A stretch of 64,000 bases of DNA, taken from contig CAYHNH010000002.1 in the NCBI GenBank assembly GCA_964358005.1, positions 18,596 through 82,595 on the forward strand, read 5' to 3'. The first letter of the stretch is position 1, and each line of letters starts with the position of its first letter. This DNA is from an uncultured Candidatus Saccharibacteria bacterium. GTDB lineage: Bacteria; Patescibacteriota; Minisyncoccia; Phycocordibacterales; PALSA-1337. Below are positions 26,245-39,663 of this stretch, piece after piece. The notes under the pieces are model-generated. The model was not told the DNA's origin and did no database searches. It worked only from the letters and a program-made list of their open reading frames with translations. Made by a program: the position numbers and the translations under genes.

Positions 26245-26259
26245 GGATATACTTAGACC

Positions 26260-26637: not shown

Positions 26638-27324
26638 GTGCGACGTAGGACTTCTATGCAGAAATGTACACATAACGACATCTCCATCATCATCCCCTTT
26701 TATAACGAGGAGGACAATGTGGAGCCGGTCATAAGAGAGGTTATGGAAAAAGTTCCGGGTGCTGAAATAGTCGCCATTGACGATGGCTCGACCGATCGCA
26801 CTGCCAGTGAGCTCCGAAAATTCCCTACCCTAAGGGTAGTCACCTTTTTTGAGAACCTTGGACAGGGGTTTGCCATTTACGCCGGGCTCGGCAGAGCGGC
26901 TAACGAGCGGTGTGTTGTTATGGATGGCGATGGTCAGTATGATCCCCTGTCTGTTATAGGTCTCGCCGATGGTCTGGACTCCGTTCACCTAGTCTGCGGG
27001 CGGCGTATGAATAGGAGCGACAGAGCTAGCGCGATTTTTGCTTCTAGATTCTCAAATTCGGTCCGCAGACTCATTTTCGGCGATCAAATCATGGACACCG
27101 GAGGTATAAAAGCCATAAGACGTTCCACCGCCCTGGACCTCCTCTGGCCTTTTGAGGGATTACACAGATATATAGCTTCCATATTCTTCCGTGCAGGGCT
27201 TCCTATGTCCGAGGTACCTGTGAATCATCGACCGAGGCTGTTCGGCACGACCAAATATACGCATTCCGGGAGAGCAATGAGAGGCCTGGTCGATCTAGTG
27301 ATGGTAAGATGCCAGATACGATGA
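26638..27324 (+). CDS. family 2 glycosyltransferase (polyprenol-phosphate sugar transferase, DPM1/ArnC-like)
   Basis: GT2 motifs (ISIIIPFYNEEDNV; AIDDGSTDRT; VVMDGDGQYDP). Confidence 0.85.
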   Translation: MRRRTSMQKCTHNDISIIIPFYNEEDNVEPVIREVMEKVPGAEIVAIDDGSTDRTASELRKFPTLRVVTFFENLGQGFAIYAGLGRAANERCVVMDGDGQYDPLSVIGLADGLDSVHLVCGRRMNRSDRASAIFASRFSNSVRRLIFGDQIMDTGGIKAIRRSTALDLLWPFEGLHRYIASIFFRAGLPMSEVPVNHRPRLFGTTKYTHSGRAMRGLVDLVMVRCQIR

Positions 27325-27623
27325 CGGGTAACATCCTGAACACGGCCACCCAGATAGCTACGATATGGACTGTAATAGGCCTCGTAGGCGCAGTGATGTT
27401 CACTTCTCGCTGGTTTGTACAGTTCTTGCATTCCCGCACAAAAGGAGTTTCGTCTGTACCGCCGCTATTTTGGGTCATGAGCGCGCTCGGCAGCGTCGCT
27501 ACTTTAGCCTATTTCATATTCGGCAACCCTGATCTCATAGGTATCATATCGAATCTCTTCCCTCTTTTCGTCTCGGTTTATAATCTTATCCTTATATCTA
27601 GACAGAAAGACAAGGTTGAATGA
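27309..27623 (+). CDS. small membrane protein, possible lipid-A-disaccharide synthase N-terminal (LAB_N) domain
   Basis: 104 aa with three TM helices. It overlaps the GT2 stop. This pairing is typical of GT2/LAB_N two-component polyprenol-P glycosyltransferases. Confidence 0.5.
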   Translation: MPDTMTGNILNTATQIATIWTVIGLVGAVMFTSRWFVQFLHSRTKGVSSVPPLFWVMSALGSVATLAYFIFGNPDLIGIISNLFPLFVSVYNLILISRQKDKVE

Positions 27624-27650
27624 ATAGAAGATTACTGTAGGCTTTTTTTG

Positions 27651-28517
27651 CTATCGCTGGAACTCCTCCAATAGCTCAGACGAGTAATAGAACTCGTAGG
27701 CCAAACGCCCGAAGGAATAGCGCCGCCCATCGAAGCTGACTACGGCCGCCCCTCCGACTTTCGGTTCTGAATTGGGTCTGGAATTTGAAAAGCCTATATT
27801 ATAAAGCGTAGCAATTATCTCGGGGCGCTCAGATATGTCGTAACCATAGCGATTCCATTGGGCGATAATCTCCCTGCTATACATCGCGGCATATAGATAA
27901 GAATAATAATGATCTACGGCAGTAAAACGAAGGAACAGCTCCTCTTCCGAATTCACGGCCCCCGTAGTAGATATCAAGCGCACCAAGCCAGGCCCAGGAT
28001 AAAAAGGCGTAGATTCATTTAATGCATGTGATTCAATCTTCTTCGCTGTACTGACCTTCAGCCCCATTGGTCCCAATGATATGCCGATTTTCGGATTCAT
28101 AAGGACATTCTTAACCCCCGTCAGACGTTCGAACCTGCCTTTGGATGAAAAATGGTATCTCATCTGTTCGGCAACAAGCTCGGAAACTATGAGCCGAGCA
28201 CGAATACCTGTCTCGCGCTCAACCCTATCGAGCACTGACCGGTCTGAGAGAACAGACTTCTTGAACGCTAACCACTGAGAGGTGCCGGAAAGAAAGAACG
28301 GCTTTGGTCTGCCATCCCTACCGGCTTCCCAGTACGACGCAGGTTCTGGATCAGCGATGCCCACAGCTGCAGGAAGATATATATTTGCGCCAGACACTCG
28401 TAGAAGTTGGACCACGGCAATGACCGCAACGAGCACGACGAATAGATATCTGAAGGACGTCAAAAGTTCTCTAACGCTTTTCATTGTATTTCGAATAGTG
28501 CTCAAGGATGCCGGCAA
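27651..28517 (-). CDS. hypothetical membrane-anchored protein
   Basis: 288-aa ORF with an N-terminal TM helix. Its start overlaps the stop of the upstream amidase gene by 47 nt (28471..28517), so it is probably operonic with it. Confidence 0.5.
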   Translation of the reverse strand: MPASLSTIRNTMKSVRELLTSFRYLFVVLVAVIAVVQLLRVSGANIYLPAAVGIADPEPASYWEAGRDGRPKPFFLSGTSQWLAFKKSVLSDRSVLDRVERETGIRARLIVSELVAEQMRYHFSSKGRFERLTGVKNVLMNPKIGISLGPMGLKVSTAKKIESHALNESTPFYPGPGLVRLISTTGAVNSEEELFLRFTAVDHYYSYLYAAMYSREIIAQWNRYGYDISERPEIIATLYNIGFSNSRPNSEPKVGGAAVVSFDGRRYSFGRLAYEFYYSSELLEEFQR

Positions 28518-29304
28518 CAGTCGCCTTGGCCATCACTTCAAATGCATATGCTCGCGACCGCTCTGATTGGAACTGCGGCTCATATACAAAGCCGTATTCC
28601 ACTAGGACAGAGCTAGCATCAAGCGTATTATATGCGCCAAGCGCGATAAGGCTATTGCTGGGGAAAATACCTTCTCTAACCTTATCCGAAATCGTCACAG
28701 GAATAACCTTTTTCAACTCGGCGTACAATGATCTTCCTATGGCGAGCGAGGTGGATGCGTTATGAAGTCCATCACCAGGAATGAACACAGTGAATCCCCT
28801 GCTCCGGCCAGGTTGATCAGCCTTTCTGAAGTCATCATTGAAATGAACGCTGAGAACCAGGTCTATATCGTTCTCGTTAGCCCACAGATTTGTGCCATAT
28901 AAATGTATCGCTGTTTCATCGCTCACCTCAGTGTGTGCATCCCCTCGGTCGCCCTTGGGGCGCAATCCGATTATGTAGAGAAAACGCTCCCAAAACTGAT
29001 GGCGGCGCTTGAAGCTTAGGATGTCCTCCTTGCGCGCCACGAAATGATCAGCTAACTCGGGCAACCAGAGGGATGCATCTCTCGATATGATCGCATCGAA
29101 TTTTCCGTCATGTATCAATTCATCGGCAATCAGGATCGACAGCTCGAGGGCCAAGTCGCGTTCGTGTGTATCACGAAAGCTGGCACCGCCGGAGGTAGGT
29201 TCATGGCCTGGAATTACGAGAATCCGCGTAGTAGCACCTGCAGCTGCTGGAAAATAAAACAGCAATATGAATGTCGCAAGTCCTATTATAGCCAATCTTT
29301 TCAT
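28471..29304 (-). CDS. N-acetylmuramoyl-L-alanine amidase (Amidase_3 family)
   Basis: Signal peptide plus Amidase_3 motifs (RILVIPGHEPTSGGA...ERDLALELS...LSVHFND...GFTVFIPGD). Confidence 0.75.
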   Translation of the reverse strand: MKRLAIIGLATFILLFYFPAAAGATTRILVIPGHEPTSGGASFRDTHERDLALELSILIADELIHDGKFDAIISRDASLWLPELADHFVARKEDILSFKRRHQFWERFLYIIGLRPKGDRGDAHTEVSDETAIHLYGTNLWANENDIDLVLSVHFNDDFRKADQPGRSRGFTVFIPGDGLHNASTSLAIGRSLYAELKKVIPVTISDKVREGIFPSNSLIALGAYNTLDASSVLVEYGFVYEPQFQSERSRAYAFEVMAKATVAGILEHYSKYNEKR

Positions 29305-29325
29305 AGGTCGACTTCATCATACCAT

Positions 29326-29359
29326 GCAAAAAAAGGCCGGCGAACTAAATCACCGGCCC
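29326..29359 (-). terminator. rho-independent terminator
   Basis: On the minus strand, GGCCGG-loop-CCGGCC is followed by TTTTTTT, downstream of the 29381..30349 gene. Confidence 0.5.
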
Positions 29360-29380
29360 GTGCAAAAGCGACAACCACAA

Positions 29381-30349
29381 CTACGGAGCGGAGGCGATGC
29401 GGACGTCTGACCGGCGCTTCATGTAGGGCTGGATTATCTCCGCCTTGACCATGATGTGCCGAATCGAGGGGCCATCTCGGACATTGAAAACTAGATCGCC
29501 TAGTTCGGTGAACACCGCGCCGAGGATGACCATACCGGCCTTCATGCCGGCATCCGCGTATGGCTTGTCAGCCTTGACGCTGACGACGCGGAGACCGACG
29601 AGATTGCCATCGCCATCACGCTCGTTCTTGATCTCCATCCACGTCTTGATCTCATCGACGATGAACGGCTTCATTACGAGAGCCTCCCCTTCCGTCACGA
29701 TCGGGGCCCGCCAGTCCAGGATCAGATCCGGACGGCTGGCGATGGATTTCGGGAGAGGTAGCGTCACCTTGTGCATCTGTGACACCCTGGAACGGAACTC
29801 TTCAGCGCTCCTGGTCGAATCCTTGAATCCGACCGTGAATTTGCCCGGTCCGAGCTCTTGGACGAACCAGCGCGAATCGGAAAACCGATACCAGAGCCCG
29901 TGGACGACAGTGCGGTCGCCGGTCTTTTTCGTGTTGATGGCGACTGGCTCCGCGCGATCTCGATCGAGCTTCCGTGCTGTTACACGCCAGGTTTCCTTGA
30001 GGACATCTTCCGTAGACATCCCCTCAGGAAGAACGAACGGGGCCTCACTGCGGACATAGGCTAGGAAGACCGGTGTCCGTTTTTTCGAAGCGGACCAATA
30101 GACCTTCCAGCCAGTGAGCGCGTCATTCGAGATGATCGGCTCGTAGCTGATGATCTGCGCATTTGGCGTGACATTCATCCAGCGATCGACCATCACGGTC
30201 GAACTGAACGCCTGTCGGCCGATCGTCTCCACTGGGAGCGGGCGATACAGCTGAATCACCTGAATCTGCGTATCCACAGACTCTCCGGCAAATGCCTGGG
30301 GAAAGATCCCCAGCATGAGCAATGCAAAGAACAAGCGAATCATTTTCAT
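29381..30349 (-). CDS. secreted hypothetical protein
   Basis: Signal peptide (MKMIRLFFALLMLGIFPQAFA). Start chosen at the internal Met of the track ORF. Confidence 0.55.
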   Translation of the reverse strand: MKMIRLFFALLMLGIFPQAFAGESVDTQIQVIQLYRPLPVETIGRQAFSSTVMVDRWMNVTPNAQIISYEPIISNDALTGWKVYWSASKKRTPVFLAYVRSEAPFVLPEGMSTEDVLKETWRVTARKLDRDRAEPVAINTKKTGDRTVVHGLWYRFSDSRWFVQELGPGKFTVGFKDSTRSAEEFRSRVSQMHKVTLPLPKSIASRPDLILDWRAPIVTEGEALVMKPFIVDEIKTWMEIKNERDGDGNLVGLRVVSVKADKPYADAGMKAGMVILGAVFTELGDLVFNVRDGPSIRHIMVKAEIIQPYMKRRSDVRIASAP

Positions 30350-30436
30350 TTTCGATTCCTCCAAATTTATGTGGTTTGTGGGAACTATGTTTAGTCGGAA
30401 TATATCACATCTAAGAGGAAATATCAAGCCCCCCGC

Positions 30437-31705
30437 TCAGAATCTATAAACCCATATTTGACCGGATGGCGACGATCCATGGCTGTAAAAAAGCAATCTT
30501 ATCCGACTGTTATCCACAATGTAATGCATCCTATTATTCCTTAGCATTTTGAAAACATACCCGTCGATAACTATAAAGCCGTGACTATTCTCGATTATGC
30601 CTTTGAGCTGCTCTAGTGTGCGGATCGGATTGACCCCGCTATAAAAGTCGGCTTCCCTTTCTGACATGCTTTGTGCTGGGATCCAGAGACCATAACGGCC
30701 AAGGTAGAGGTTCGCGAGAGCTGGATGAATCGAGATGATCACGTCATCAGGCCGCATGATTTGATGTATGAGTCCGTAGGCACCGTTGTAATCTGGTTGG
30801 GGAGAAACTAGATTGATGGCATAGGCTTTTCTCGGTATGAAATTATAAAATGGTGCTACCACTGACACCAGGATGAGAAATGCAATCAACGATCTAACGC
30901 GCTTGGGAAGCCTATTGGCCAGCGTAAGATCTACTACCTTCATACACATGTAGACAGCAAGCACGGTCCATAGGGGTAGAAATGGAAATAGCACATATCT
31001 AGGAAGCATCACCCACATATCAAGAGCGAGCAATATCGAAATATAGCCAACAAGGATCACAAAAATTAGGTACGCCACTCTTTTTTTTGACTGAAGGATG
31101 AATGACCTAGGACGGTCATGTAGCATCAGAACAAATGCGGGGAGAAATGCCAACGCCACCCAATGAGAAAGCGCGGCCAGGATAAAGAATACCATCGTCA
31201 AAGCTAGGTCTGATCGTCGCCTACTTTCAAAATATTTCCAAAGGAAAAGAGTGGTAAGAACGATAAATACCGCCAGTGCCGCATATCCCCTAGCCTGACG
31301 TGACCATGCAATCTCATAGTAAAGAAATGCGACGATAAACGCGCTCGCAAGTGACACGTCTGCCCTACTAAACAGCGCACGTGCGAGAGCATATACGCAA
31401 TATATGAGCAACGTGCCAAACAAAACCCCAGGCAACCTGACTACCCATGGATTGAACGGGTCGAATCCAAAGATTTTTATAGTGAGAGCCGCCGCGTATA
31501 CGCTTACGAAGTTATTCGTATACAAGGATCCAGAGCCCATTAAGGGGTAGCCTCGGTCCAATACAGCATGAGCGGCATGCACTGTATATGCCTCATCGAG
31601 CCAGAGCGGCTGGCAACCTAGACAATAGGCTCTAAGAAAAAAACCCGACACTATCAAAGCGCCCAGTACAAGATATCGCCAGTGACTAGTGCAAAAATTC
31701 TTCAA
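30437..31705 (-). CDS. GT-C glycosyltransferase, family 39/83-like (PMT/ArnT-type)
   Basis: 422-aa polytopic membrane protein. The first loop carries the DE motif and an aromatic-rich segment (LWLDEAYTVHAAHAVLDRGYPL). Confidence 0.75.
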   Translation of the reverse strand: MKNFCTSHWRYLVLGALIVSGFFLRAYCLGCQPLWLDEAYTVHAAHAVLDRGYPLMGSGSLYTNNFVSVYAAALTIKIFGFDPFNPWVVRLPGVLFGTLLIYCVYALARALFSRADVSLASAFIVAFLYYEIAWSRQARGYAALAVFIVLTTLFLWKYFESRRRSDLALTMVFFILAALSHWVALAFLPAFVLMLHDRPRSFILQSKKRVAYLIFVILVGYISILLALDMWVMLPRYVLFPFLPLWTVLAVYMCMKVVDLTLANRLPKRVRSLIAFLILVSVVAPFYNFIPRKAYAINLVSPQPDYNGAYGLIHQIMRPDDVIISIHPALANLYLGRYGLWIPAQSMSEREADFYSGVNPIRTLEQLKGIIENSHGFIVIDGYVFKMLRNNRMHYIVDNSRIRLLFYSHGSSPSGQIWVYRF

Positions 31706-31709
31706 TCAG

Positions 31710-32195
31710 TTAGTCAGGATACAACACTATGAAGCCTGCCGGCTTGCGGCCGTCATTGCAGGAATATGTCCGAGTCTGAAAACCCCGAGGAGGGACATAC
31801 TGGGGCATGATGTCTGAAATCGCAAGGTTCTTCGAGCCCTTTGCTGGTATCATGACAGTCGTCGAACCAAACGTAAGTTTTACAGTTGAGGTTGCGGCCA
31901 AATTCAGAAACTCGACACGCTCATCCGGAAACATCTTCAGGACGGGTACACTGGCCTTGCAGGTGGAGTCTATATACACCTTGTTCGTCTGGACAGCGGA
32001 CGTCACTGCGATACCAAGACGCTTTGACAAGGACTCATCTGTGACATTTCTGGTGAAATTGGATTCAAAGAGCACCTTAGAGTCCGCAAGACGTGATTTG
32101 CCGGACAATTGGCCCTGAAAGAATCCGTACAAATAGCCAGCAACAACTGCTACGATGAGGATGGCTGACAGAGCTACGTAGATAAGCTTATTCAT
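31710..32195 (-). CDS. hypothetical membrane-anchored protein
   Basis: 161 aa with an N-terminal TM helix. It overlaps the start of the downstream GT39 gene, so it is probably operonic. Confidence 0.5.
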   Translation of the reverse strand: MNKLIYVALSAILIVAVVAGYLYGFFQGQLSGKSRLADSKVLFESNFTRNVTDESLSKRLGIAVTSAVQTNKVYIDSTCKASVPVLKMFPDERVEFLNLAATSTVKLTFGSTTVMIPAKGSKNLAISDIMPQYVPPRGFQTRTYSCNDGRKPAGFIVLYPD

Positions 32196-32205
32196 GATTT
32201 ATAGA

Positions 32206-33468
32206 TTATATGCACTGGATGTCCCACGAATCGCATTCCGCGCCGCATGACATACTTGTTCCAGTAACCGTACACCCATCAAGAACATCTCCTATATACT
32301 CACCGTAGTCATTGTATGCTGGCGAATAAGTGCAATCCATCTTGCTGCACGAGCAACCGTCCCCAGAGCAATCCATGTCACCTTCGTCGCAAGAGCATGT
32401 TATCGTGTATGACACACAGACTTCTTGTTCTATACACCCACCACCCCCTCCTCCACCACCGGTCGGTGGTTCCGAAGGTGGTTCTGAAGGCGCCTCAGAT
32501 GGCGGCTCTGAAGGAGCTTCCGAGGGTGGTTCTGAAGGAGGAGTTGAAGGCGGCTCGGTTGGTGGTTCCGAGGGTGGATCAGAAGGAGGTGTCGAGGGTG
32601 GTTCCGACGGCGGTTCTGAAGGAGGAGTCGAAGGCGGCTCTGAAGGAGCTTCTGAGGGCGGTTCTGAAGGAGGAGTTGAAGGTGGCTCGGATGGTGGTAC
32701 CGAAGGAGGTTCAGATGGCGGCACACTTGGCTCTGGGGTAGGTGTAGATCCTCCACAAGCGGCCGTTCCATAGTCACTGCAACCAAGGTCACAATGATCG
32801 CCGCAGACAGTCGAACCGTCGCTACCAGTGGCTCCACACGAGGCATTTGCGCAAGGATTGGTGCATACAGGCAGCCCAGCCAATGGGCAACCGGCATCGC
32901 AAGAATCGCCGCAAGTCGTCACACCGTCGCTGCCGGTCTGGCCGCAACTCTTTCCGTCACAGACACCTACGCACGCCGCCGTTCCAGCATCTGGACACCC
33001 AGTATCGCAGTGGCTACCACAGGTGGTCGAGCCGTCAGTGCCAGTCTCGCCGCAATCATACCCGCTAGGACAGGCGCAAGCGGCGGTTCCGGCATCGGGA
33101 CAGCCTGTGTCGCAGCTGCTGCCGCAGGTCGTCACACCGTCCGACCCGGTATCTCCACAGGAGACACCGGTGCAGACATCCACTCCACAATTATTCAAGG
33201 AAACGTTCGGAGCACCGTTGTTCACAATAGAAAGCCACTCATTTTGGGTCTTTGTGCCTATGAAAAGGTTCTTGGAATTGGCATTGTCGACATCTCTACA
33301 GATGCTGTACTCGTCTATGGTCTCCACAGCCCCCGCTCCGACATCATACCAGTTGTAATTAGCCGCCAAGGCGGGTGTAATCTGAAATGAGAAAAATGAG
33401 AAAACAGCCACCGCAGCGAACGCGATCCTAAGAGCCTTGAATACTGATGTATATACGTTTCTCTTCAT
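32206..33468 (-). CDS. secreted cysteine-rich repeat protein with (PPSE)n low-complexity linker
   Basis: Signal peptide, then four roughly 40-aa Cys-rich modules (SCG.TGSDG.TTCG..CD.GCP.AG), then about 25 tandem PPSEPPS-type repeats, a Gly8 run, and a Cys-rich C-terminus. Confidence 0.8.
   Translation of the reverse strand: MKRNVYTSVFKALRIAFAAVAVFSFFSFQITPALAANYNWYDVGAGAVETIDEYSICRDVDNANSKNLFIGTKTQNEWLSIVNNGAPNVSLNNCGVDVCTGVSCGDTGSDGVTTCGSSCDTGCPDAGTAACACPSGYDCGETGTDGSTTCGSHCDTGCPDAGTAACVGVCDGKSCGQTGSDGVTTCGDSCDAGCPLAGLPVCTNPCANASCGATGSDGSTVCGDHCDLGCSDYGTAACGGSTPTPEPSVPPSEPPSVPPSEPPSTPPSEPPSEAPSEPPSTPPSEPPSEPPSTPPSDPPSEPPTEPPSTPPSEPPSEAPSEPPSEAPSEPPSEPPTGGGGGGGGCIEQEVCVSYTITCSCDEGDMDCSGDGCSCSKMDCTYSPAYNDYGEYIGDVLDGCTVTGTSMSCGAECDSWDIQCI
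32461..32735. repeat. 12-nt periodic tandem repeat (coding; PPSE-type peptide repeat)
   Basis: The unit ggtggttctgaa(ggn) is repeated about 23 times. This repeat produces the false ORFs in several alternative frames. Confidence 0.85.
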
Positions 33469-33854
33469 TGTGTTTTATAGTAAATTCTGCCGACATCCTT
33501 CATCTGGTCACAATCATAAGACATCGAACCTGGGGTTTTGAAAAAACCTAGGTTGACCAATTTCTTCGAGTTGGCCGGAATGACGTACTTGTTATCGATC
33601 CCGAAATAAATTGCATGCTGCCTCCTGTCGCTGTTCTTGAATGTGATCCTCGTGCCAGCTGCGGCTGGAAGCTTCACCATCTGCGGATCAGGCTCGCATC
33701 CGGTTATGTTCACCACATCTGTGACTGCCTGCCCGGCGACTGGTGAGCGGGCGTCTTTGATAGAAGAAATATATCCCCAATACATGAGGAGGCCTAGAAT
33801 CAAAATAGCAACAGCCACTTCCAGCGCTAAGGCTTTTTTAGGTTGGGTATCCAC
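33465..33854 (-). CDS. hypothetical membrane-anchored protein (possible cupredoxin-like beta domain)
   Basis: 129 aa with an N-terminal TM helix. It overlaps the start of the downstream gene by 4 nt. Confidence 0.5.
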   Translation of the reverse strand: MDTQPKKALALEVAVAILILGLLMYWGYISSIKDARSPVAGQAVTDVVNITGCEPDPQMVKLPAAAGTRITFKNSDRRQHAIYFGIDNKYVIPANSKKLVNLGFFKTPGSMSYDCDQMKDVGRIYYKTQ

Positions 33855-33917
33855 TTCCCGATAAGTTTACCTCATTGGGCCACTTTTAGGGCCTTTGCAC
33901 TGTGGATATCGTGACAT

Positions 33918-33950
33918 GAAGAAACCCCTCCGGAAGGAGGGGTTTCTTTG
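33918..33950 (-). terminator. hairpin terminator (GAAACCCCTCC ggaa GGAGGGGTTTC)
   Basis: A perfect 11-bp stem lies downstream of the 33965..34441 gene. The flanking T-rich tracts are partly within the stem. Confidence 0.4.
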
Positions 33951-33964
33951 ATCCATCGGATGGA

Positions 33965-34441
33965 TTATTTCTGGGCCAAATCCTTCGGAGTTCCCCAGCA
34001 TGCCTTGGAGGAAGCCCACGGCGAAGTGCCAAATTTATCATAAAGATGCTTGGCGTAGGCGATGTTGCCCTCTATTGAATAGATGTCAACGCCGAGCTTG
34101 ACGGCATCCTCAGCGTGGTATTTTTCATTGATCTGCATGACCCCCACGTCAGCCGAATTCACTAGCCCGCGTATGACGCGGCCATCGGGACCATACTGGC
34201 GGAAGGTGGACTCACAGCGCGCAATCTCAACGAGAATGGGCGCATCCGAGAACTCCCTCTTGAGGAAAGCCTCAACCTTTTTTGCATCCGTAAGAGTCCT
34301 AGATATGGGCGCAGGCTGAGCTGGGAAAGCCTCGTTTATTTCTGCATTCACATGACCTGCTCCGTAGAGCGAAGCCATAAGGAATGCGGCACCTGTTGCG
34401 GCTTCAATCATGTTTAATAAAAAACGAGAGCCTGTAAACAT
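33965..34441 (-). CDS. lysozyme-like / lytic transglycosylase-like domain protein
   Basis: 158 aa with a signal/TM N-terminus and an ES...GVMQI pattern (IARCESTFRQY...DVGVMQINEKYH) like the SLT catalytic core. Confidence 0.5.
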   Translation of the reverse strand: MFTGSRFLLNMIEAATGAAFLMASLYGAGHVNAEINEAFPAQPAPISRTLTDAKKVEAFLKREFSDAPILVEIARCESTFRQYGPDGRVIRGLVNSADVGVMQINEKYHAEDAVKLGVDIYSIEGNIAYAKHLYDKFGTSPWASSKACWGTPKDLAQK

Positions 34442-34595
34442 GGTGTTTACTTAGCTCAGTTTTGTGATATAAGTATAGCACCTTTGGACTCATTCGTCAA
34501 TACCTAATCGTAGGGTATCCTTATTTAGAGCCATTCTCTGGACTTACTCCACAGCATTTTTGGTCATTTGGCAATAGTCACGTATAATTGGGGCT

Positions 34596-35999
34596 GTGGC
34601 CCCCCTATTTATCCTTATCACGAGCGCTGTCGCTCATTTTTGGAACTTCGGCTTCCCTGCTTCCATAGTCTTCGATGAGGTCTACTTCGGCCGTTTTGTG
34701 GCAGATTACTGGCACGGCACATACTTCTTCGACGTCCACCCACCACTCTCGAGACTGCTCATAGCTATATTCGGTAAACTCACAAGCATCGATCAGATAC
34801 CGACGGAGTGGCTCGCGGTCGGTGGAGATCTCTCGCCGGCCATGACCGCCCTGCGATTCCTACCCACACTAGCAGGAACTCTTCTGCCTGTCGTCATCTA
34901 CTTTATATGCAGGAATTTCAAATTCTCGAAAGTCTCGTCAGCGGTCGCAGCCCTGCTGATATGCTTCGAGAACTCGCTCCTAGTCCACTCGCGTTTCATA
35001 ATGCAGGAAAGCATGCTCATCTTATTCGGTTTTTTGGCGATACTCTTCTATCAGAAATATAAGATCGACGGCAAAAAGGGCTGGTTCGCCCTCTCCGCCG
35101 TGTTCATCGCATGCTCGATCTCCTCAAAATGGATCGGGCTTTCATATCTAGCGGTGATCATAGTCCTGGAGGCGTGGGATCAGATGCATAAACATGGAGT
35201 CGCTCATCGGATTAGGAGAAGCATAGTGGAGCTCATCAAGGTGGGATCGATCTACCTAGCTTTTATCGCAGTCATCTATAGCAGCTCGTTTGCGCTCCAC
35301 TTTGCCCTACTGCCCAAAACAGGCTCTGGCGACGGATTCATGACGCCAGGATTCCAGAAAACGCTCACTGGTAATAGATACGAGAATGATCAACTTCTAA
35401 GCACTCCAAATTTCTTCGAGAAGCTGATTGAGATCAATAAGCAGCTGTACCTGTCCCAGAAGAGCATCACCACAGCGCACCCTTCTGGTACAAAATGGTA
35501 CACATGGCCGATCATGCAGCGCGGCGTATACCTTTGGCATAACAATGACTGGTCTGCGCGTGAGGAAAAGAACGAGCTATACATCCTTGGCAACCCGCCT
35601 ATTTATTGGCTGGGTACGCTTTCTATAGTTTTTCTCATTATCTACACGATGTGGCTTGCGATAAGGCGCTTCAAAAAGCGCGCATGGGCTACTGTTGATC
35701 CAGACAAAAACAAGCTCCTGCTTTTCTTGCTATTCGGTTACTTGATGAATCTTCTTCCCTATTTGTTTATAGGCAGGACGCTCTTTCTCTACCATTATGA
35801 GACAGCTCTCGTATTCAGCATCATAGCCATTGCCGCAGTTTTGGAATATTTCTGTCCTACCGAGAAGCGGACCCGGGTTGCAATAGTCCTTGTTACGACA
35901 GCCTTCCTGATATTTTTATACTTCAGCCCGCTAACGTACGGGACTCCGATAACACCGAAGGAGCTTGATAAAAGAATGTGGTTGTCGACCTGGCGTTAG
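34596..35999 (+). CDS. dolichyl-phosphate-mannose--protein mannosyltransferase family (GT39, PMT-like)
   Basis: PMT signature DEVYFGRF...FFDVHPPL with multiple TM helices. It has a GTG start. A TATAAT at 34583-34588 lies 7 nt upstream. Confidence 0.8.
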   Translation: MAPLFILITSAVAHFWNFGFPASIVFDEVYFGRFVADYWHGTYFFDVHPPLSRLLIAIFGKLTSIDQIPTEWLAVGGDLSPAMTALRFLPTLAGTLLPVVIYFICRNFKFSKVSSAVAALLICFENSLLVHSRFIMQESMLILFGFLAILFYQKYKIDGKKGWFALSAVFIACSISSKWIGLSYLAVIIVLEAWDQMHKHGVAHRIRRSIVELIKVGSIYLAFIAVIYSSSFALHFALLPKTGSGDGFMTPGFQKTLTGNRYENDQLLSTPNFFEKLIEINKQLYLSQKSITTAHPSGTKWYTWPIMQRGVYLWHNNDWSAREEKNELYILGNPPIYWLGTLSIVFLIIYTMWLAIRRFKKRAWATVDPDKNKLLLFLLFGYLMNLLPYLFIGRTLFLYHYETALVFSIIAIAAVLEYFCPTEKRTRVAIVLVTTAFLIFLYFSPLTYGTPITPKELDKRMWLSTWR

Positions 36000-36033
36000 G
36001 GCGCACAAAAGCAATCTTAGTAATTTGATTGAG

Positions 36034-37668
36034 TTACTTTGTTTTCAAAACAAGCGTCGATCCTGACGAGTAAACTGTCTCGTAGGTATCCTTAAGTAGC
36101 GGATCAATCTTAAAACTCTTGGACGCACCTGCGTCTACTATGATATGAGAAATGTTGTACTTGTTGATAATCGCGCCAGCATCGCGGGCATTCTCATATA
36201 CCTTCTGCATATCGGTCTTACGTACGGATCCATCTAGACCATAGCTCCATATCCACCCAGGGTATCCTTGAACTACGCTCCGACCGGCTAAAGAGAACAC
36301 CGGATTGTTGTGGTTCAAACCAGTGAGGAAAACGCTGTCTTTCGGAGTATCGCGTCTGATGAAATCAGCTAGCTCCATATCCGCTCTTGAGAACAGCCGC
36401 GTGCTGGAATTCAGCTCACGGATGGAGACAAGGACGCCCACCGGAATCATCAGGACAATGAGGCACAGTGACGCAGCTCTTCGAAGCCAACCATTTTTCC
36501 ATAGATGTTCGAGCAGGAACGCGGTCATGACGCAAGATATCAAAAAGAATATGACTATGAATTTCGTGTTGTCCCAGGCATTCGGCTGGAACACTACGGC
36601 ATTCCCAACCACAAAAAGAAAGATGGCTCCGTTAAAGAAGGTCCGAAATCTCATCGGCGCAACAAGGTAGGCCGCAATGAAGACCGGGATATAGATGAGC
36701 AGATTCTTGAACCAGAATATTATCGGATTGGCTTCACCGAAGAATCCCAGGTGTGCGCCTGGAGACTTATCTGTCGGAAATATTAGCCACATCTGGGCAG
36801 CTGCCAGAACTATGATCGGCAAGCCGAAATAGATCAACCAACGCTTTACGATCATGTCTAATACTGCTCTCTTTCTGTACACTAGAATGATCTCTCCGCA
36901 GAACATGGCAAAGGCAATCAGACCCAAACTAATGAACGTATGCAGATGAACGAGTGGTAGAGCACACAGAACAAGCGAAAAGATAAGCAGATCTCGTTGG
37001 GTCTTCCCTTCCCAATAGCGCCAAAGGAAATATACGGCTACTAGACCTATAGTCAACCCGAATATGAACGCCCTCTGCGGCAAGATAAAATCGCTTATGA
37101 CATTTGAGAATACGACATTTGCGCCCTTCAGATACGAATAGTTCGTCGACTGATGTAGAAGCGCGTACAGGAGCGGCTTCCCTTCTCTTATATAATCAGA
37201 AATGAAATAGAAAAGCCCCCAAAGGCTCCCGCCGAACAAAAATATGATCGGCGTAAAGAATGAGCCTATCGCGCTCTTTGTGATCTTGAAAGACACGACC
37301 CAGAGACATAATATGAAAGCCATTATCGCAAGGAATGTCGGCCAAAGGAACGCATTGCGTGGCGACGCCCCAAGACTCATGAGAAGGCCGCTTATATAAT
37401 CCGGGACAAAGGGATACGAGACGGAAGTGCCTGAGAAGACTGGGTTGTCATTGAGAGTCTTAGATAGTCCCCTCAGAGCGAAGCTCGACCCCAAGGCCAT
37501 ATGTCCCGGAAGATCGCCCCAGACATTGCTAGCTGAGTACAGGCCATCAGGTTTCTCATAAAGATAGTGAGATGAGCATAGATTCCAGAAGAATATGCCG
37601 AACAGCATGTAGGCACAAAAGAATATGCCGAACAGCGTTTTATTGCTTTTTATGCGCTCAAGGATCAT
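36034..37668 (-). CDS. large polytopic membrane protein, possible GT-C-fold glycosyltransferase
   Basis: More than 12 predicted TM helices plus a C-terminal soluble domain. Start set at the internal Met (MILERIK...) so that it does not overlap rpmA. Confidence 0.5.
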   Translation of the reverse strand: MILERIKSNKTLFGIFFCAYMLFGIFFWNLCSSHYLYEKPDGLYSASNVWGDLPGHMALGSSFALRGLSKTLNDNPVFSGTSVSYPFVPDYISGLLMSLGASPRNAFLWPTFLAIMAFILCLWVVSFKITKSAIGSFFTPIIFLFGGSLWGLFYFISDYIREGKPLLYALLHQSTNYSYLKGANVVFSNVISDFILPQRAFIFGLTIGLVAVYFLWRYWEGKTQRDLLIFSLVLCALPLVHLHTFISLGLIAFAMFCGEIILVYRKRAVLDMIVKRWLIYFGLPIIVLAAAQMWLIFPTDKSPGAHLGFFGEANPIIFWFKNLLIYIPVFIAAYLVAPMRFRTFFNGAIFLFVVGNAVVFQPNAWDNTKFIVIFFLISCVMTAFLLEHLWKNGWLRRAASLCLIVLMIPVGVLVSIRELNSSTRLFSRADMELADFIRRDTPKDSVFLTGLNHNNPVFSLAGRSVVQGYPGWIWSYGLDGSVRKTDMQKVYENARDAGAIINKYNISHIIVDAGASKSFKIDPLLKDTYETVYSSGSTLVLKTK

Positions 37669-37745
37669 GTAATAAGGAAATTTTAGCACGACTAGCGCTA
37701 AAAACAGCTGTGTGTTATGATATTTCGACCTAATAAAACACCTAT

Positions 37746-38018
37746 ATGGCACATCGCAAAGCGGAAGGCACAACAAAAAACGGGCGTGATTCAAACCCGA
37801 AATACCTAGGCGTCAAGATAAACCACGGCCAGGCTGTCGGCGTAGGTCAGATCATCATCCGCCAGCGCGGCACAGACGTACTCCCAGGCAGGAATGTTGG
37901 TACAGGCAAGGACTATACCCTCTTCGCCTTGAAGGACGGCAAGGTCTCTTTTGGTACCAAGCGCAAGACTAGCTACAACAACGACATCGAGCGCAAGAAG
38001 ATAGTGCACGTCGTCTAG
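37746..38018 (+). CDS. rpmA: 50S ribosomal protein L27
   Basis: 90 aa ([24 protein letters not shown]...IIIRQRGT...[15 protein letters not shown]). Confidence 0.9.
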
Positions 38019-38035
38019 GTTAACTCCTTTAGGGA

Positions 38036-38156
38036 AGGTCGTGCAATCAGTCGAAACAGACTTTCGGAGGAGATTTCTAGCAGGAAATCTCCGAGAACAG
38101 AACCGACCCTCTGCAGAGGGTCGAGTTCGGGTCTGTTGAGGTTGATTGCACGACCT
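38036..38156. other. nested multi-stem structured element between convergent genes
   Basis: A perfect 13-bp outer stem pairs AGGTCGTGCAATC (38036-48) with GATTGCACGACCT (38144-56). It encloses three hairpins (CGAAA/TTTCG; GGAGATTTC tagcag GAAATCTCC; CGACCCTC tgca GAGGGTCG). Confidence 0.55.
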
Positions 38157-38169
38157 TTCGCATGTATAC

Positions 38170-39663
38170 CTATACGTTTTGGAAAATCGATATGCTGGCA
38201 AAAAAGCAAATTGAGCAAAGGATGAATAAATAAATAACCGATACAAGCAAACCAGCGAAAAATCCACTGAATCTCGACCCCTTAGATCTAAGGTCAGCGA
38301 TTATATAAGCCAAAAGAGCTGAAACAGGGATGACTATCGGGTAAACGAAACGGAAATCTGAACTCGGAAAATAAGGGTAGAGATATCGTCCAACAACAGC
38401 TGACACAATCAAAAGCGCGATCGAGAATAGGGTGAGCACTCGCATAGGCGCATCGGATTGAATCGCAAAAAAATCCCTAGTGAATCCTTTTGCAATAAAC
38501 ATAAGCCCGACCACCATGGCCAACAGCATAAGAATAAGAAGGTAGCTCATCAGAATCGCCTGAAATGCAAACGTATTTCCATCAAAACGATACTCTCCAA
38601 AAAGAGAGCTCTTTAGGAAAACATTCAGGAAGTACTGCCGCCCAGTGGTATCGTGGCTTAGGTCCATGAATGGATACTGAACAAAAGACTGCAGGTCGAA
38701 ACTGATGAAATTTTTGATATCATTTGTCGTAAGTACATCAGTCATTAAAATTGCATTAGGATTCAACTCCGATCTAAAATCAAAAGCCTTGTTCCCATAA
38801 AACTTGCTATGTCTAAGACCTGCAAAACACAATAAGATCAATACCGCTGGCAACATTATCTTGCAGACATCGATCAGTATCTCTTTCTTGCTTTTGGCTA
38901 GGATGAGCTTAAGCAAAATCGCAATAATAATAACAGCGAGCAGCACGAGACCGGTACCCTTGGTAAGCAGAGAAGCGATCAGGAAAATAACTGACAATAG
39001 TAAGCTTTTCCATCGGGCGTCCTTGAACCATTTTGTGATGAAATAAGCTCCGCCAGCTATAAAAAAATATGATAAAGCGTCGTTATTTATTGTAACTGAG
39101 GTGATGATCCCCGCAGGCCAGAAGATGAGCAGCATCGCTGAAAGATTAAAATATATATCGTTTGTTCCCTCTGGGATAAACAAACGCAATAGCTTAATCC
39201 CAAAATATAGGAAACCGACACTAGCGAGAAGCGATAGCAGCTGTAAAATCAACAATCCTTCACCATCATTAGAACAAGAGCTGAAATAACATACAGGGCT
39301 CACACTCATGTAATATAAAGGCGGATGGAAACCTTCCCAGCAATCGTTAGCTGATGGGAGGGAGTGATTGCTTGATATGTAATTGATATTGCAGATATGG
39401 CCTTGCACATCGTGACCGCGTACAAATGGGGGCGTTTCGCTAAGATATGCAATACGCAGAAGCAAGCCCGCGAGAAGAATCAGCGTTACCAGGTAACTGC
39501 CGGCAATAGGTTTCTTCCTAGCTATGTATAGGAGAACAATAGCGCTAGTCAACGCCAGGATTATAGGAATGTATGGTGCTGCTACAAAATTAGCGCTGTG
39601 GAAAGAATTTACTAGGATCATCAGGAAAAGAACTATCAGTCCGATGAAAGCTAGATTTTTCAC
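38170..39663 (-). CDS. GT-C glycosyltransferase, PMT/ArnT-like (family 39/83)
   Basis: 497-aa polytopic membrane protein with a first-loop motif (RGHDVQGH...WEGFHPPLYY) resembling the PMT/ArnT DE-HPPL region. Confidence 0.65.
   Translation of the reverse strand: MKNLAFIGLIVLFLMILVNSFHSANFVAAPYIPIILALTSAIVLLYIARKKPIAGSYLVTLILLAGLLLRIAYLSETPPFVRGHDVQGHICNINYISSNHSLPSANDCWEGFHPPLYYMSVSPVCYFSSCSNDGEGLLILQLLSLLASVGFLYFGIKLLRLFIPEGTNDIYFNLSAMLLIFWPAGIITSVTINNDALSYFFIAGGAYFITKWFKDARWKSLLLSVIFLIASLLTKGTGLVLLAVIIIAILLKLILAKSKKEILIDVCKIMLPAVLILLCFAGLRHSKFYGNKAFDFRSELNPNAILMTDVLTTNDIKNFISFDLQSFVQYPFMDLSHDTTGRQYFLNVFLKSSLFGEYRFDGNTFAFQAILMSYLLILMLLAMVVGLMFIAKGFTRDFFAIQSDAPMRVLTLFSIALLIVSAVVGRYLYPYFPSSDFRFVYPIVIPVSALLAYIIADLRSKGSRFSGFFAGLLVSVIYLFILCSICFFASISIFQNV

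What the first reader, a model, noticed from the sequence alone, without database searches (positions are those of the whole stretch)
26638..39663. 13-kb envelope glycosylation cluster with four GT-C (PMT/ArnT-like) enzymes
Within 13 kb lie:
- a GT2 polyprenol-phosphate sugar transferase (26638) with a LAB_N-type small membrane partner (27309);
- four polytopic GT-C enzymes with PMT/ArnT first-loop motifs (30437-31705; 34596-35999 with DEVYFGRF/FFDVHPPL; 36034-37668; 38170-39663 with WEGFHPPLYY);
- an Amidase_3, an SLT-like protein, and several secreted or membrane-anchored unknowns.

This looks like a lipid-linked-sugar system (GT2 makes the polyprenol-P-sugar, GT-C enzymes transfer it on the outer face). 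Possible targets are proteins (O-mannosylation type) or envelope glycans. The number of GT-C paralogs suggests several acceptor specificities. The single ribosomal gene rpmA is embedded in the cluster.
Basis: partly seen in the sequence, partly recalled or inferred. Interest (0 to 1): 0.65.

Follow-up and report, generated by a model that had tools for sequence, protein, structure and literature searches.

The report
Envelope glycosylation cluster, four GT-C enzymes
An uncultured groundwater bacterium of the CPR/Patescibacteria type carries a real surface-glycosylation gene cluster: one enzyme that loads a sugar onto a membrane lipid, and four unrelated membrane enzymes that move lipid-linked sugar onto targets outside the cell, one of them from an unnamed family that sits next to the protein O-mannosyltransferase gene in many phyla.

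Summary
Profile searches confirm:
- a GT2 lipid-phosphate sugar transferase (26638-27324), overlapped by a LAB_N three-helix membrane protein (27309-27623);
- a PMT_2-type GT-C (30437-31705);
- a true GT39 protein O-mannosyltransferase without the MIR domain (34596-35999);
- a remote PMT-superfamily GT-C (38170-39663; hhalign 97.6% to PMT);
- Amidase_3 and rpmA.

- This unnamed GT-C lies directly next to a GT39 PMT gene in 23 of 65 loci across many phyla, in all three orientations.
- Two further loci carry GT2 and LAB_N as overlapping genes, one followed by a GT-C gene. Other relatives have GtrA in that place.
- The only Ser/Thr/Pro-rich secreted protein in the window (32206-33468) sits 1.1 kb from PMT.
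- The cluster is composite: a conserved PMT core plus strain-variable GT-C cassettes, one in a low-GC islet.

Best reading: a lipid-linked-sugar, extracytoplasmic (probably protein O-) glycosylation system. It is a new variant of a known kind. Sugar, acceptors and the PMT partnership are inferred, not shown.

The parts
26638..27324 (+). GT2 polyprenol-phosphate sugar synthase, 228 aa, soluble. It lacks the C-terminal TM helices of GtrB and ArnC.
   Evidence: Pfam Glycos_transf_2, 73.5 bits. The best NCBIfam hits are PgfS, ArnC and PpgS, all far below their equivalog cut-offs. The best PDB relatives are ArnC, GtrB sll0501 and P. furiosus DPMS; the match covers residues 14-221 only. No TM segment predicted.
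27309..27623 (+). LAB_N small membrane protein, 104 aa (or 100 aa), three TM helices. Its gene overlaps the GT2 gene. Candidate membrane partner and/or flippase.
   Evidence: Pfam LAB_N, 69 bits. Three TM segments. AF2 pLDDT 88.9. GT2 and LAB_N are overlapping genes again in L090 and L091, and in L091 a PMT_2 GT-C gene follows directly. All 43 homologues are stand-alone proteins of about 100 aa.
27651..28517 (-). Membrane-anchored protein, possibly lysozyme-like (weak).
   Evidence: Pfam DUF1402, E 4.5e-4, below cut-off. One N-terminal TM. No PDB sequence hit.
28471..29304 (-). N-acetylmuramoyl-L-alanine amidase (Amidase_3), secreted or membrane-anchored.
   Evidence: Pfam Amidase_3, 51.5 bits. 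N-terminal hydrophobic segment.
29381..30427 (-). Unknown membrane-anchored protein, 322-348 aa, paired with the PMT_2-type GT-C.
   Evidence: No Pfam or PDB hit. A 340-aa homologue lies next to a 424-aa PMT_2 protein in L090. A terminator-like hairpin sits just downstream at 29359-29334.
30437..31705 (-). GT-C glycosyltransferase of PMT_2 (ArnT/PMT-like) type, 422 aa, with WLDEAYT after TM1.
   Evidence: Pfam PMT_2, 52.7 bits (cut-off 26.1). About 8 TM segments. Motif read directly.
31710..32195 (-). Small membrane-anchored unknown protein, 161 aa.
   Evidence: No Pfam hit. One TM. It is 4-10 nt from its neighbours on the same strand.
32206..33468 (-). Secreted Cys-rich repeat protein (38 Cys) with a 112-aa Pro/Ser/Thr/Glu-rich region. 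Candidate O-glycosylation acceptor.
   Evidence: It is the only one of 60 window proteins with a Ser/Thr/Pro-rich stretch (max 0.83 per 30 aa). Tandem DNA repeats lie at 32465-32715. Homologues with the same PPSE linker sit next to PMT in L002 and L003.
33465..33854 (-). Small membrane-anchored unknown protein, 129 aa, conserved in the PMT neighbourhood.
   Evidence: No Pfam hit. Homologues in L002 (78% identity) and L003 (45% identity) occupy the same position.
33965..34441 (-). Possible lytic transglycosylase or lysozyme-like protein, 158 aa.
   Evidence: Pfam SLT, E 0.0054, below cut-off. CES motif read directly. Conserved next to PMT in L002-L005 at 60-92% identity.
34596..35999 (+). GT39 protein O-mannosyltransferase family enzyme, 467 aa, without MIR domain.
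   Evidence: Pfam PMT 142 bits plus PMT_4TMC 153 bits. PDB fungal Pmt1, Pmt2 and Pmt4, E down to 5.8e-43. VFDEVYFG aligns with VFDEVHFG of Pmt1. The roughly 210-residue MIR insert is absent.
36034..37668 (-). GT-C-fold enzyme of an unnamed family, 544 aa: about 11 TM segments plus a C-terminal alpha/beta domain. Conserved neighbour of PMT.
37746..38018 (+). rpmA (ribosomal protein L27). A syntenic housekeeping gene, not part of the mechanism.
   Evidence: Pfam Ribosomal_L27, 109.7 bits. Same position in L002-L005.
38170..39663 (-). Remote PMT-superfamily GT-C, 497 aa (RGHDVQGH and HPPLYY in loop 1), in a low-GC islet.
   Evidence: Pfam PMT_2, 22.8 bits, below cut-off. Homologues are annotated GT39 or PMT_2. 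hhalign against the PMT profile: 97.6%, E 3.9e-12, aligning D85 with the DE motif. GC 0.414 against 0.508 for the window. Replaced in L002.
39729..40445 (+). SAM-dependent methyltransferase, 238 aa, in the same low-GC islet. Possible sugar or lipid O-methylase; function untested.
   Evidence: Pfam Methyltransf_23, _25, _12 and _11. GC 0.416. L002 has a NUDIX gene at this place instead.

Best explanation
The region is a composite locus for extracytoplasmic glycosylation with a lipid-linked sugar donor, in a CPR/Patescibacteria (Paceibacterota-like) bacterium.

Step 1 (inferred from homology). The soluble GT2 (26638-27324) transfers a monosaccharide from a nucleotide sugar to polyprenol phosphate at the inner face of the membrane. 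The translationally coupled three-helix LAB_N protein (27309-27623) holds it at the membrane, or flips the product, or both. It occupies the place that GtrA takes in related loci.

Step 2 (inferred). The GT39 enzyme (34596-35999) transfers the sugar, by family precedent mannose, onto Ser/Thr of secreted proteins. The neighbouring Cys-rich protein with a 112-aa PPSE linker (32206-33468) is the most obvious candidate acceptor. The unnamed GT-C next door (36034-37668) works with PMT. It is either a second subunit, as in yeast Pmt1-Pmt2 and mycobacterial Pmt-Rv0051, or the enzyme that extends the first sugar.

Step 3 (inferred). The PMT_2-type GT-C (30437-31705, with its 348-aa partner) and the low-GC GT-C (38170-39663, with a methyltransferase) are strain-variable additions. 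They would give other acceptor or linkage specificities.

Shown here: gene content, family or fold of each protein, conserved adjacency, and cassette variability. Not shown: sugar identity, acceptors, or any physical complex.
For: Family and fold assignments:
- GT2, LAB_N, PMT_2, PMT+PMT_4TMC and Amidase_3 by Pfam.
- The GT2 is closest to ArnC, GtrB and DPMS, and lacks TM helices.
- The 497-aa family matches PMT by hhalign at 97.6%.
- The PMT DE motif aligns with Pmt1, and the MIR insert is absent.

Conserved context:
- rplI-rpmA-GT-C544-PMT-SLT-like-u129-Cys-rich protein recurs in L002, L003 and L005.
- L005 and L079 have GT2, GtrA, PMT and GT-C544 side by side. L010 has PMT-GT-C544-GT2 in a row.
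- PMT is directly adjacent to GT-C544 in 23 of 65 loci with enough flank, in Patescibacteria, Dormibacterota, Acidobacteriota, Nitrospirales, Desulfobacterales, Actinomycetes and Thermomicrobia. Orientations: 12 co-directional, 12 divergent, 2 convergent. All 27 neighbours carry PMT+PMT_4TMC.
- GT2 and LAB_N are overlapping genes in L090 and L091. L091 is a GT2-LAB_N-GT-C operon.

Candidate acceptor: only one of 60 window proteins is Ser/Thr/Pro-rich, and it is 1.1 kb from PMT.

Precedents in the literature:
- Three-component systems (PMC11127046).
- GtrB plus a GT-C glycosylating Ser/Thr-rich regions in streptococci (PMC12041528).
- Mycobacterial Pmt pulled down with a second GT-C, and GT39-GT87 fusions in Paenibacillus (bioRxiv 10.64898/2026.07.15.738315).
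Against: - No biochemical data exist for any of these proteins.
- The GT2 and LAB_N lie 7 kb from PMT, on a segment that is absent at this position in L003 and not seen on the L002 contig. The GT2 may therefore serve only the PMT_2-type GT-C.
- The GT2's sugar cannot be read from sequence. Its NCBIfam hits are all far below equivalog cut-offs.
- LAB_N homologues in two other loci have no GT2 neighbour.
- 42 of 65 GT-C544 loci have no adjacent PMT. Many sit among housekeeping genes.
- No PMT-GT-C544 fusion was found among 9 long homologues.
- The PPSE region could be a plain linker.
- The L005 homologue of the Cys-rich protein is less Ser/Thr/Pro-rich, max 0.50.
Confidence: 0.55

Rival explanations
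1. The GT-C enzymes decorate non-protein envelope molecules, such as glycolipids, lipoglycans or wall-linked glycopolymers. This is what ArnT, YfhO, GtrC, PimE/Mpt and the Aft enzymes do. The peptidoglycan hydrolases in the cluster would then reflect a cell-wall polymer pathway rather than protein glycosylation.
For: - PMT_2-type proteins (30437-31705; 38170-39663) belong to a broad group that includes ArnT-like lipid and glycan modifiers.
- One homologue carries a PA14 carbohydrate-binding domain.
- Amidase_3, SLT-like, DUF1402-like, M23, MurG and FtsW genes lie in or near the cluster.
Against: - 34596-35999 is a full GT39 protein with both PMT domains and the DE motif. Characterised GT39 enzymes act on proteins (established knowledge, and the statement quoted).
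- A Ser/Pro-rich secreted protein is conserved next to it.
- ArnT's substrate, lipid A, is not expected here. The only LAB_N-related NCBIfam hit is to a domain of LpxB, not to LpxB itself. Absence of LPS in CPR bacteria is background knowledge and was not tested.
Confidence: 0.25
2. There is no single system. The 13 kb is a synteny block of independent envelope genes typical of small CPR genomes. It would hold at least three separate modules that use different donors and have unrelated targets:
- GT2-LAB_N with the 348-aa protein and the PMT_2-type GT-C;
- PMT with GT-C544 and the Cys-rich protein;
- a horizontally acquired GT-C plus methyltransferase.
For: - Gene strands alternate. Promoter-like sites diverge at 34472-34588, and a terminator-like hairpin sits at 29359-29334.
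- Comparison with L002 (84-89% DNA identity in the core) shows three differences. 38019-40456 is replaced by a NUDIX gene. Another GT-C is inserted between GT-C544 and PMT. There is no DNA similarity below 32433.
- GT-C497 and the methyltransferase have GC 0.415 against 0.508 for the window.
- In L090 the GT2-LAB_N and 340-aa/PMT_2 genes form their own compact group.
- L003 lacks GT2-LAB_N at this place.
Against: - All GT-C enzymes need a lipid-linked donor, and only one candidate donor synthase is present in 64 kb.
- In other lineages GT2, GtrA, PMT and GT-C544 are contiguous (L005, L010, L079, L083). The modules are therefore repeatedly brought together.
Confidence: 0.3
3. The 544-aa GT-C is a catalytically inactive scaffold for PMT, the role proposed for mycobacterial Rv0051 and assigned to yeast Pmt2 in acceptor recruitment. 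It would not be an enzyme in its own right.
For: - The conserved adjacency with PMT is independent of orientation.
- The preprint reports that Pmt co-purifies with a GT87-like GT-C that lacks catalytic residues.
Against: - The family keeps an invariant first-loop Asp (D52), as well as H56, Y85, Q198, R199, N367 and K369, across 47 sequences at 21-86% identity. This is the pattern of a conserved active or donor-binding site.
- Two thirds of homologues have no PMT next door.
- Some sit directly beside a GT2 without a PMT (L021, L072).
Confidence: 0.2

Closest known systems
Actinobacterial protein O-mannosylation (Ppm1 polyprenol-P-mannose synthase plus Pmt/Rv1002c, GT39; recently reported complex with the GT-C-like Rv0051, Rv3212 and Rv1209)
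   Same: - A GT39 enzyme without MIR domain and with the loop-1 DE motif.
- A GT2 donor synthase.
- A second GT-C protein associated with Pmt. Here the association is by conserved adjacency; in mycobacteria it is by pull-down.
- Peptidoglycan hydrolases are nearby. The preprint names the amidase Ami3 among proteins that depend on mannosylation.
   Different: - The NCBIfam actinobacterial Pmt equivalog scores only 50 bits against a cut-off of 800.
- No beta-propeller or DivIVA-like partner was identified.
- The GT2 is a short soluble protein paired with LAB_N rather than the Ppm1 arrangement.
- The host is a CPR bacterium.
Gtr-type three-component glycosylation systems (GtrA flippase, GtrB GT2, GtrC-type GT-C; CsbB/GtcA/YfhO; ArnC/ArnEF/ArnT; PPPRS/MATE/GT136)
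   Same: The logic is a GT2 lipid-phosphate sugar synthase, a small membrane protein and GT-C transferase(s). L091 shows GT2-LAB_N-GT-C as one operon. GtrA takes the same place in L005 and L079.
   Different: - The small membrane protein is LAB_N (3 TM), not GtrA, an SMR-type ArnE/F or MATE.
- The GT2 lacks its own TM helices.
- Four GT-Cs of different families are present, rather than one.
Streptococcal GtrB-PgtC2 and Pgf (PgfS/PgfM1/PgfM2) O-glycosylation of Ser/Thr-rich disordered regions (PMC12041528)
   Same: The best NCBIfam hit of the GT2 is PgfS. GT-C enzymes lie beside a secreted protein with a long Ser/Thr/Pro-rich region.
   Different: - The PgfS score is 64 bits against a cut-off of 500, so this is not an equivalog.
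- The GT-Cs here include a GT39, which that system does not use.
- No experimental link exists for this locus.
Eukaryotic PMT1-PMT2 heterodimer (GT39, PDB 6P25)
   Same: Sequence match E 1.2e-40 to Pmt1 over both the PMT and 4TMC parts. The VFDEV(Y/H)FG and DVHPPL motifs are shared. It may also work as a pair of GT-C proteins.
   Different: - The roughly 210-residue MIR domain is missing.
- The putative partner is not a GT39 paralogue but an unrelated GT-C family (hhalign against PMT only 27%).
- The donor would be a bacterial polyprenol phosphate, not dolichol phosphate.

Membership tests
GT39 / PMT (for 34596-35999) | Both Pfam PMT (PF02366) and PMT_4TMC (PF16192) score above their gathering thresholds. 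| tested here: met
   142.2 bits (cut-off 22.7) and 153 bits (cut-off 32.4).
GT39 / PMT (for 34596-35999) | Asp-Glu (DE) motif in the first extracytoplasmic loop. | tested here: met
   D27-E28 in VFDEVYFG aligns with VFDEVHFG of yeast Pmt1. It is nearly invariant in 28 PMT neighbours.
GT39 / PMT (for 34596-35999) | MIR domain in loop 5 (the eukaryotic type only). | tested here: not met
   Query residues 263-271 bridge Pmt1 residues 320-531, and there is no MIR Pfam hit. This matches the bacterial type, which also lacks MIR according to the text quoted.
GT39 / PMT (for 34596-35999) | Transfers mannose from polyprenol-P-mannose to protein Ser/Thr. | not testable with these tools
   Needs an enzyme assay or glycoproteomics.
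Actinobacterial Pmt equivalog (NCBIfam NF058602) | Score at or above the equivalog cut-off. | tested here: not met
   50.4 bits against a cut-off of 800.
GT-C fold superfamily (for 36034-37668) | Polytopic membrane fold matching solved GT-C enzymes. | tested here: met
   [not shown]
GT-C fold superfamily (for 36034-37668) | Conserved acidic residue in the first extracytoplasmic loop. | tested here: met
   D52 is invariant in 47 of 47 sequences, with H56 also 47 of 47. hhalign places it on D85 of the 497-aa family, but at only 63% probability.
PMT/ArnT (PMT, PMT_2) families (for 36034-37668) | Sequence-profile match to PMT or PMT_2. | tested here: not met
   No Pfam hit at E <= 0.01. None of the 47 homologues hit PMT or PMT_2. 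hhalign against the PMT profile gives 27%.
GT87 (PimE / Rv0051-like partner of mycobacterial Pmt) (for 36034-37668) | Match to PF09594, or best fold match to PimE. | tested here: not met
   [not shown]
PMT_2 / GT-C (for 30437-31705) | Pfam PMT_2 above the gathering threshold, and a polytopic topology. | tested here: met
   52.7 bits against 26.1. About 8 TM segments.
PMT superfamily GT-C (for 38170-39663) | Profile match to PMT or PMT_2. | tested here: met
   The single sequence scores 22.8 bits, below the cut-off of 26.1. The family profile against the PMT profile gives 97.6%, E 3.9e-12. Homologues carry PF02366 or PF13231.
Polyprenol-phosphate glycosyltransferase (GtrB/ArnC/DPMS type GT2) (for 26638-27324) | A GT-A catalytic domain homologous to GtrB, ArnC and DPMS. 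| tested here: met
   PDB ArnC E 2.7e-14, GtrB E 1e-11, DPMS E 1.4e-8. Pfam 73.5 bits.
Polyprenol-phosphate glycosyltransferase (GtrB/ArnC/DPMS type GT2) (for 26638-27324) | C-terminal transmembrane helices anchoring the enzyme. | tested here: not met
   The protein ends at 228 aa. The match stops at ArnC residue 225 of 327. No TM segment predicted.
Gtr-type three-component system | A GtrA-family flippase. | tested here: not met
   No GtrA_DPMS_TM hit among the scanned proteins of 23414-42149. LAB_N is present instead. GtrA is present in relatives L005 and L079.
Gtr-type three-component system | GT2 synthase and GT-C transferase encoded together. | tested here: met
   Also the L091 operon GT2-LAB_N-GT-C.
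SWEET/SemiSWEET-like fold (for the LAB_N protein) | Significant structural match to SWEET or SemiSWEET triple-helix bundles. | tested here: inconclusive
   [not shown]

The most novel reading that the evidence does not exclude
Two linked ideas.

1. Bacterial (and some archaeal) GT39 protein O-mannosyltransferases outside the Actinobacteria generally work as a two-GT-C machine with this unnamed family of about 550 aa. The family has an invariant loop-1 Asp and an AglB-like C-terminal domain with a GWxWxxG motif. This would extend the Pmt1-Pmt2 and Pmt-Rv0051 principle to a new partner family, and would make protein O-glycosylation a widespread trait of CPR bacteria.

2. LAB_N proteins are a fourth class of small membrane partner or flippase for lipid-phosphate-sugar synthases, interchangeable with GtrA.
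Probability: 0.3. Interest if true: 0.65.

Novelty: new variant of a known kind. Interest (0 to 1): 0.45.

Why it matters
CPR/Patescibacteria live attached to other cells, and their surfaces are almost unstudied. The literature searches run here, with specific terms, found no paper on PMT-type or GT-C glycosylation in them.

The locus gives a concrete, testable parts list for surface glycosylation in this group.

It gives an unannotated GT-C family a likely context. About 2,300 clusters at 50% identity match the family at E <= 0.001, 597 of them at E <= 1e-30, and it is a recurrent neighbour of GT39 PMT. This fits the very recent report that mycobacterial Pmt needs a second GT-C.

It also suggests that LAB_N, known only as a domain name from chlamydial LpxB, is a partner of lipid-sugar synthases.

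The strain-level swapping of GT-C cassettes around a fixed core points to diversifying selection on the cell surface, from host attachment or phage.

None of this is unexpected in kind. The value is as a lead, not a surprise.

Tried and rejected

2. Sequence searches of PDB gave nothing useful for the 544-aa protein and its profile, the 497-aa profile, the 422-aa, 288-aa and 348-aa proteins. The TIM hits at E 0.006 are taken as noise.

4. PMT-GT-C544 fusion proteins: nine long homologues were scanned and none carries a PMT domain. One has a PA14 domain.

5. The 544-aa protein as a PMT or GT87 relative: hhalign 27% and no GT87 hits. Rejected at the sequence level.

6. Informative neighbours of GT-C544 in other CPR genomes: those checked are Lon, UvrD, GAPDH and DnaG, that is, housekeeping genes.

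7. The reverse test, asking how many PMT loci carry GT-C544, failed.

8. The afdb50 fold library was not available.

10. A literature search for LAB_N/PF07578 was useless, because the underscore is ignored by the search.

11. No Rfam family or tRNA was found in the window.

Full report
**Source and setting.**
- The exact PMT protein of the window is on an ENA contig from the Hainich H41 groundwater 0.1-um filter metagenome. The exact LAB_N protein is on sister contigs.
- The nearest species representative in GTDB is a Candidatus Paceibacterota MAG, at only 43% identity for the 544-aa protein.
- The window mixes housekeeping genes (gltX, cysS, dnaB, dnaK/dnaJ, rpmA, rplI, trpS/tyrS-type) with envelope genes (ftsW, murG, M23 peptidase, S41 protease).
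- It has no tRNA or Rfam hit, and mean GC is 0.508.
- This is the usual layout of small CPR genomes. An rpmA inside the 'cluster' therefore carries no functional meaning. rplI-rpmA keep the same position in relatives.

Pfam confirms the following:
- GT2 (26638-27324).
- LAB_N (27309-27623, overlapping the GT2 stop by 16 nt).
- Amidase_3 (28471-29304).
- PMT_2 for 30437-31705 (52.7 bits).
- PMT plus PMT_4TMC for 34596-35999 (142 and 153 bits).
- L27 (37746-38018).

Weaker calls:
- 38170-39663 reaches only 22.8 bits on PMT_2, below the cut-off.
- The SLT call for 33965-34441 is weak (E 0.0054).
- 27651-28517 has a weak DUF1402 hit.

36034-37668 has no hit in Pfam, NCBIfam or PDB sequences.

**The two doubtful GT-Cs.**

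The 497-aa protein (38170-39663):
- It has 22 homologues, several of which carry PMT or PMT_2 and are named GT39 by NCBI.
- The family alignment (A2) matches an alignment of true PMTs (A4) at 97.6% probability, E 3.9e-12.
- That match places its invariant D85 (RGHDVQGH) on the PMT DE motif and its HPPLYY on HPPL.
- It is a remote member of the PMT superfamily.

The 544-aa protein (36034-37668):
- A first search gave 80 homologues, almost all without any Pfam domain.
- The exhaustive search found 2,321 clusters at E <= 0.001 and 597 at E <= 1e-30.
- Only weak DUF6798 hits (14 of 47) and Dpy19 hits (3 of 47) appear.
- An AlphaFold model built on 47 sequences is very confident (pLDDT 94.6, pTM 0.93).
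- The family keeps D52 and H56 (first loop), Y85, Q198, R199, N367 and K369 in all 47 sequences.
- It is not detectably related to PMT at the profile level (27%). It is only marginally related to the 497-aa family (63%).

Pairwise, the four GT-Cs show no significant similarity. So there are four GT-C genes, from four different families, within 9.2 kb.

**The donor side.**
- The GT2's closest solved relatives are ArnC, GtrB (sll0501) and Pyrococcus DPMS, all polyprenol- or dolichol-phosphate sugar synthases.
- The match ends at residue 221 of 228, which corresponds to ArnC residue 225 of 327. No TM segment is predicted. The enzyme therefore lacks the membrane helices of its relatives.
- The next gene, overlapping it, encodes a three-helix LAB_N protein.
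- All 43 LAB_N homologues found are free-standing proteins of about 100 aa.
- Of five LAB_N contexts inspected, three have GT2 and LAB_N as overlapping genes:
  - the window itself;
  - L090, where a 340-aa protein and a 424-aa PMT_2 GT-C follow;
  - L091, where a 571-aa PMT/PMT_2 GT-C follows in the same operon.
- Two contexts have no GT2 next to LAB_N.
- In relatives L005 and L079, a GtrA_DPMS_TM protein lies close to a similar short GT2 gene, next to PMT.
- I infer that LAB_N is the membrane partner and/or flippase of the split synthase. That is the third component of a Gtr-type system (PMC11127046).

**The PMT core.**
- 34596-35999 matches fungal Pmt1, Pmt2 and Pmt4 structures at E down to 5.8e-43.
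- VFDEVYFG lies on VFDEVHFG, and the roughly 210-residue MIR insert is missing.
- It scores far below the actinobacterial Pmt equivalog.
- The block rplI-rpmA-GT-C544-PMT-SLT-like-small anchored protein-Cys-rich secreted protein is kept in relatives at 86% (L002), 53% (L003, L004) and 40% (L005) identity.

**A conserved PMT / GT-C544 pair.**
- A scan of one genome per GTDB species found 292 relatives of GT-C544. They occur in Patescibacteria, Acidobacteriota, Dormibacterota, Nitrospirales, Desulfobacterales, Actinomycetes, Thermomicrobia and some archaea.
- In 26 of the 80 retained loci a PMT-like gene is directly adjacent. Among loci with at least 1.6 kb on both sides, the count is 23 of 65.
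- All 27 neighbours (the 26 adjacent ones plus one archaeal gene 2.5 kb away) carry both PMT and PMT_4TMC.
- The pair is co-directional in 12 loci, divergent in 12 and convergent in 2. The window itself is convergent, with a 34-bp gap.
- Adjacency that survives changes of orientation across phyla argues for a functional link rather than shared transcription alone.
- A GT2 is directly beside GT-C544 in L010, L021, L072 and L083.
- A July 2026 preprint reports that mycobacterial Pmt co-purifies with a second, GT87-like GT-C (Rv0051/MSMEG_6899). It also notes GT39-GT87 fusions in Paenibacillus and proposes that pairing is general for Pmts.
- GT-C544 is not GT87-like and keeps a conserved first-loop Asp. 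It may be an alternative partner, an extending transferase, or both.
- I found no fusion and could not co-fold the pair.

**Candidate acceptor.**
- Of 60 proteins in the window, only 32206-33468 has a Ser/Thr/Pro-rich stretch: 112 residues, mostly PPSE-type repeats. These are encoded by tandem repeats at 32465-32715.
- The protein has a signal-peptide-like N-terminus and 38 Cys in repeated CG.TGSDG.T.CG..CD.GC units.
- Its homologues in L002 and L003 keep the linker. The L005 homologue is less rich.
- Ser/Thr-rich disordered regions are the substrates of GtrB/GT-C systems in streptococci (PMC12041528) and of PMTs in general.
- The preprint also names a peptidoglycan amidase (Ami3) among proteins that depend on mannosylation. 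Hydrolase genes surround this locus.
- All of this is inference.

**Architecture and variability.**
- Promoter-like sites diverge between 33965-34441 and PMT (34472-34588).
- A strong terminator-like hairpin follows the 348-aa gene (29359-29334). This suggests a minus-strand unit running 34441 to 29381 that includes the Cys-rich protein and the PMT_2-type GT-C.
- Against L002, DNA identity is 84-89% over S41-L9, L27-GT-C544, and PMT to the N-terminal half of the Cys-rich gene. There are three differences:
  - 38019-40456 (GT-C497 plus methyltransferase) is replaced by a NUDIX gene.
  - L002 has a different GT-C (42% identical to GT-C497) inserted between GT-C544 and PMT.
  - Nothing below 32433 aligns, although L002 carries divergent versions (29-43%) of the PMT_2 GT-C, amidase and 288-aa protein.
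- GT-C497 and the methyltransferase both have GC 0.415.
- L003 has a GH3 gene where the window has GT2 through GT-C422.
- The locus is thus a fixed PMT core with exchangeable GT-C cassettes. That pattern is expected for surface structures under diversifying selection.

**Verdict.**
- It is a lipid-linked-sugar, extracytoplasmic glycosylation locus, which is a known kind.
- Three aspects are new variants: a TM-less GT2 coupled to LAB_N, an unnamed GT-C family recurrently paired with GT39 PMT, and occurrence in CPR bacteria, for which the literature searches found nothing.
- The sugar, the acceptors and any complex remain untested.
- Interest is moderate.

Noticed in passing
[not shown]
   Followed up: partly
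window 38019-40456: A low-GC islet (GC about 0.415 against 0.508) holds a GT-C and a SAM methyltransferase between rpmA and rplI. The close relative L002 has a NUDIX gene there instead. This looks like a horizontally exchanged cassette.
   Followed up: partly
window 56000-60000: The lowest-GC stretch of the window (0.35-0.43). It contains two 7TM-receptor histidine kinases (HisKA_7TM; 56179-57792 on the minus strand and 59546-61255 on the plus strand). They flank a 551-aa protein with no Pfam hit and no predicted TM segment (57816-59471, minus strand).
   Followed up: no
window 32465-32715: Imperfect tandem DNA repeats with periods of 24, 48, 84 and 132 nt encode the PPSE linker of the Cys-rich protein. 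Repeat number differs between the window, L002 and L003, so linker length may vary between strains.
   Followed up: partly
window 11976-16881: An HlyD-type membrane-fusion protein and a 1139-aa AcrB-type RND transporter. This is notable in a presumed single-membrane CPR bacterium.
   Followed up: no
window 54382-55875 (-): A 497-aa protein with a TruD pseudouridine synthase domain. It also contains an unusually Ser/Thr/Pro-rich N-terminal stretch (0.50 per 30 aa) and 11 Cys.
   Followed up: no
window 184-2720: Two consecutive ORFs of 369 and 466 aa have no Pfam match at E <= 0.001.
   Followed up: no
window 36034-37794 and 37746-38018: The longest ORF for the unnamed GT-C starts at a TTG at 37794 and would overlap the rpmA start on the other strand by 49 nt. 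Homologues support the ATG at 37668 (544 aa). The ENA gene call gives 551 aa.
   Followed up: yes
loci L026, L033, L045, L056, L058, L059 and others: Many MAGs labelled 'Pseudomonadales' or 'Gammaproteobacteria' carry CPR-like contexts for the GT-C544 homologue (Lon and UvrD neighbours). Isolate names such as HK-STAS-PATE suggest that the record titles are taxonomic mislabels of Patescibacteria.
   Followed up: no
protein P0274 (homologue of the 544-aa GT-C): One family member carries a C-terminal PA14 carbohydrate-binding domain. This is consistent with a glycan-related role for the family.
   Followed up: no
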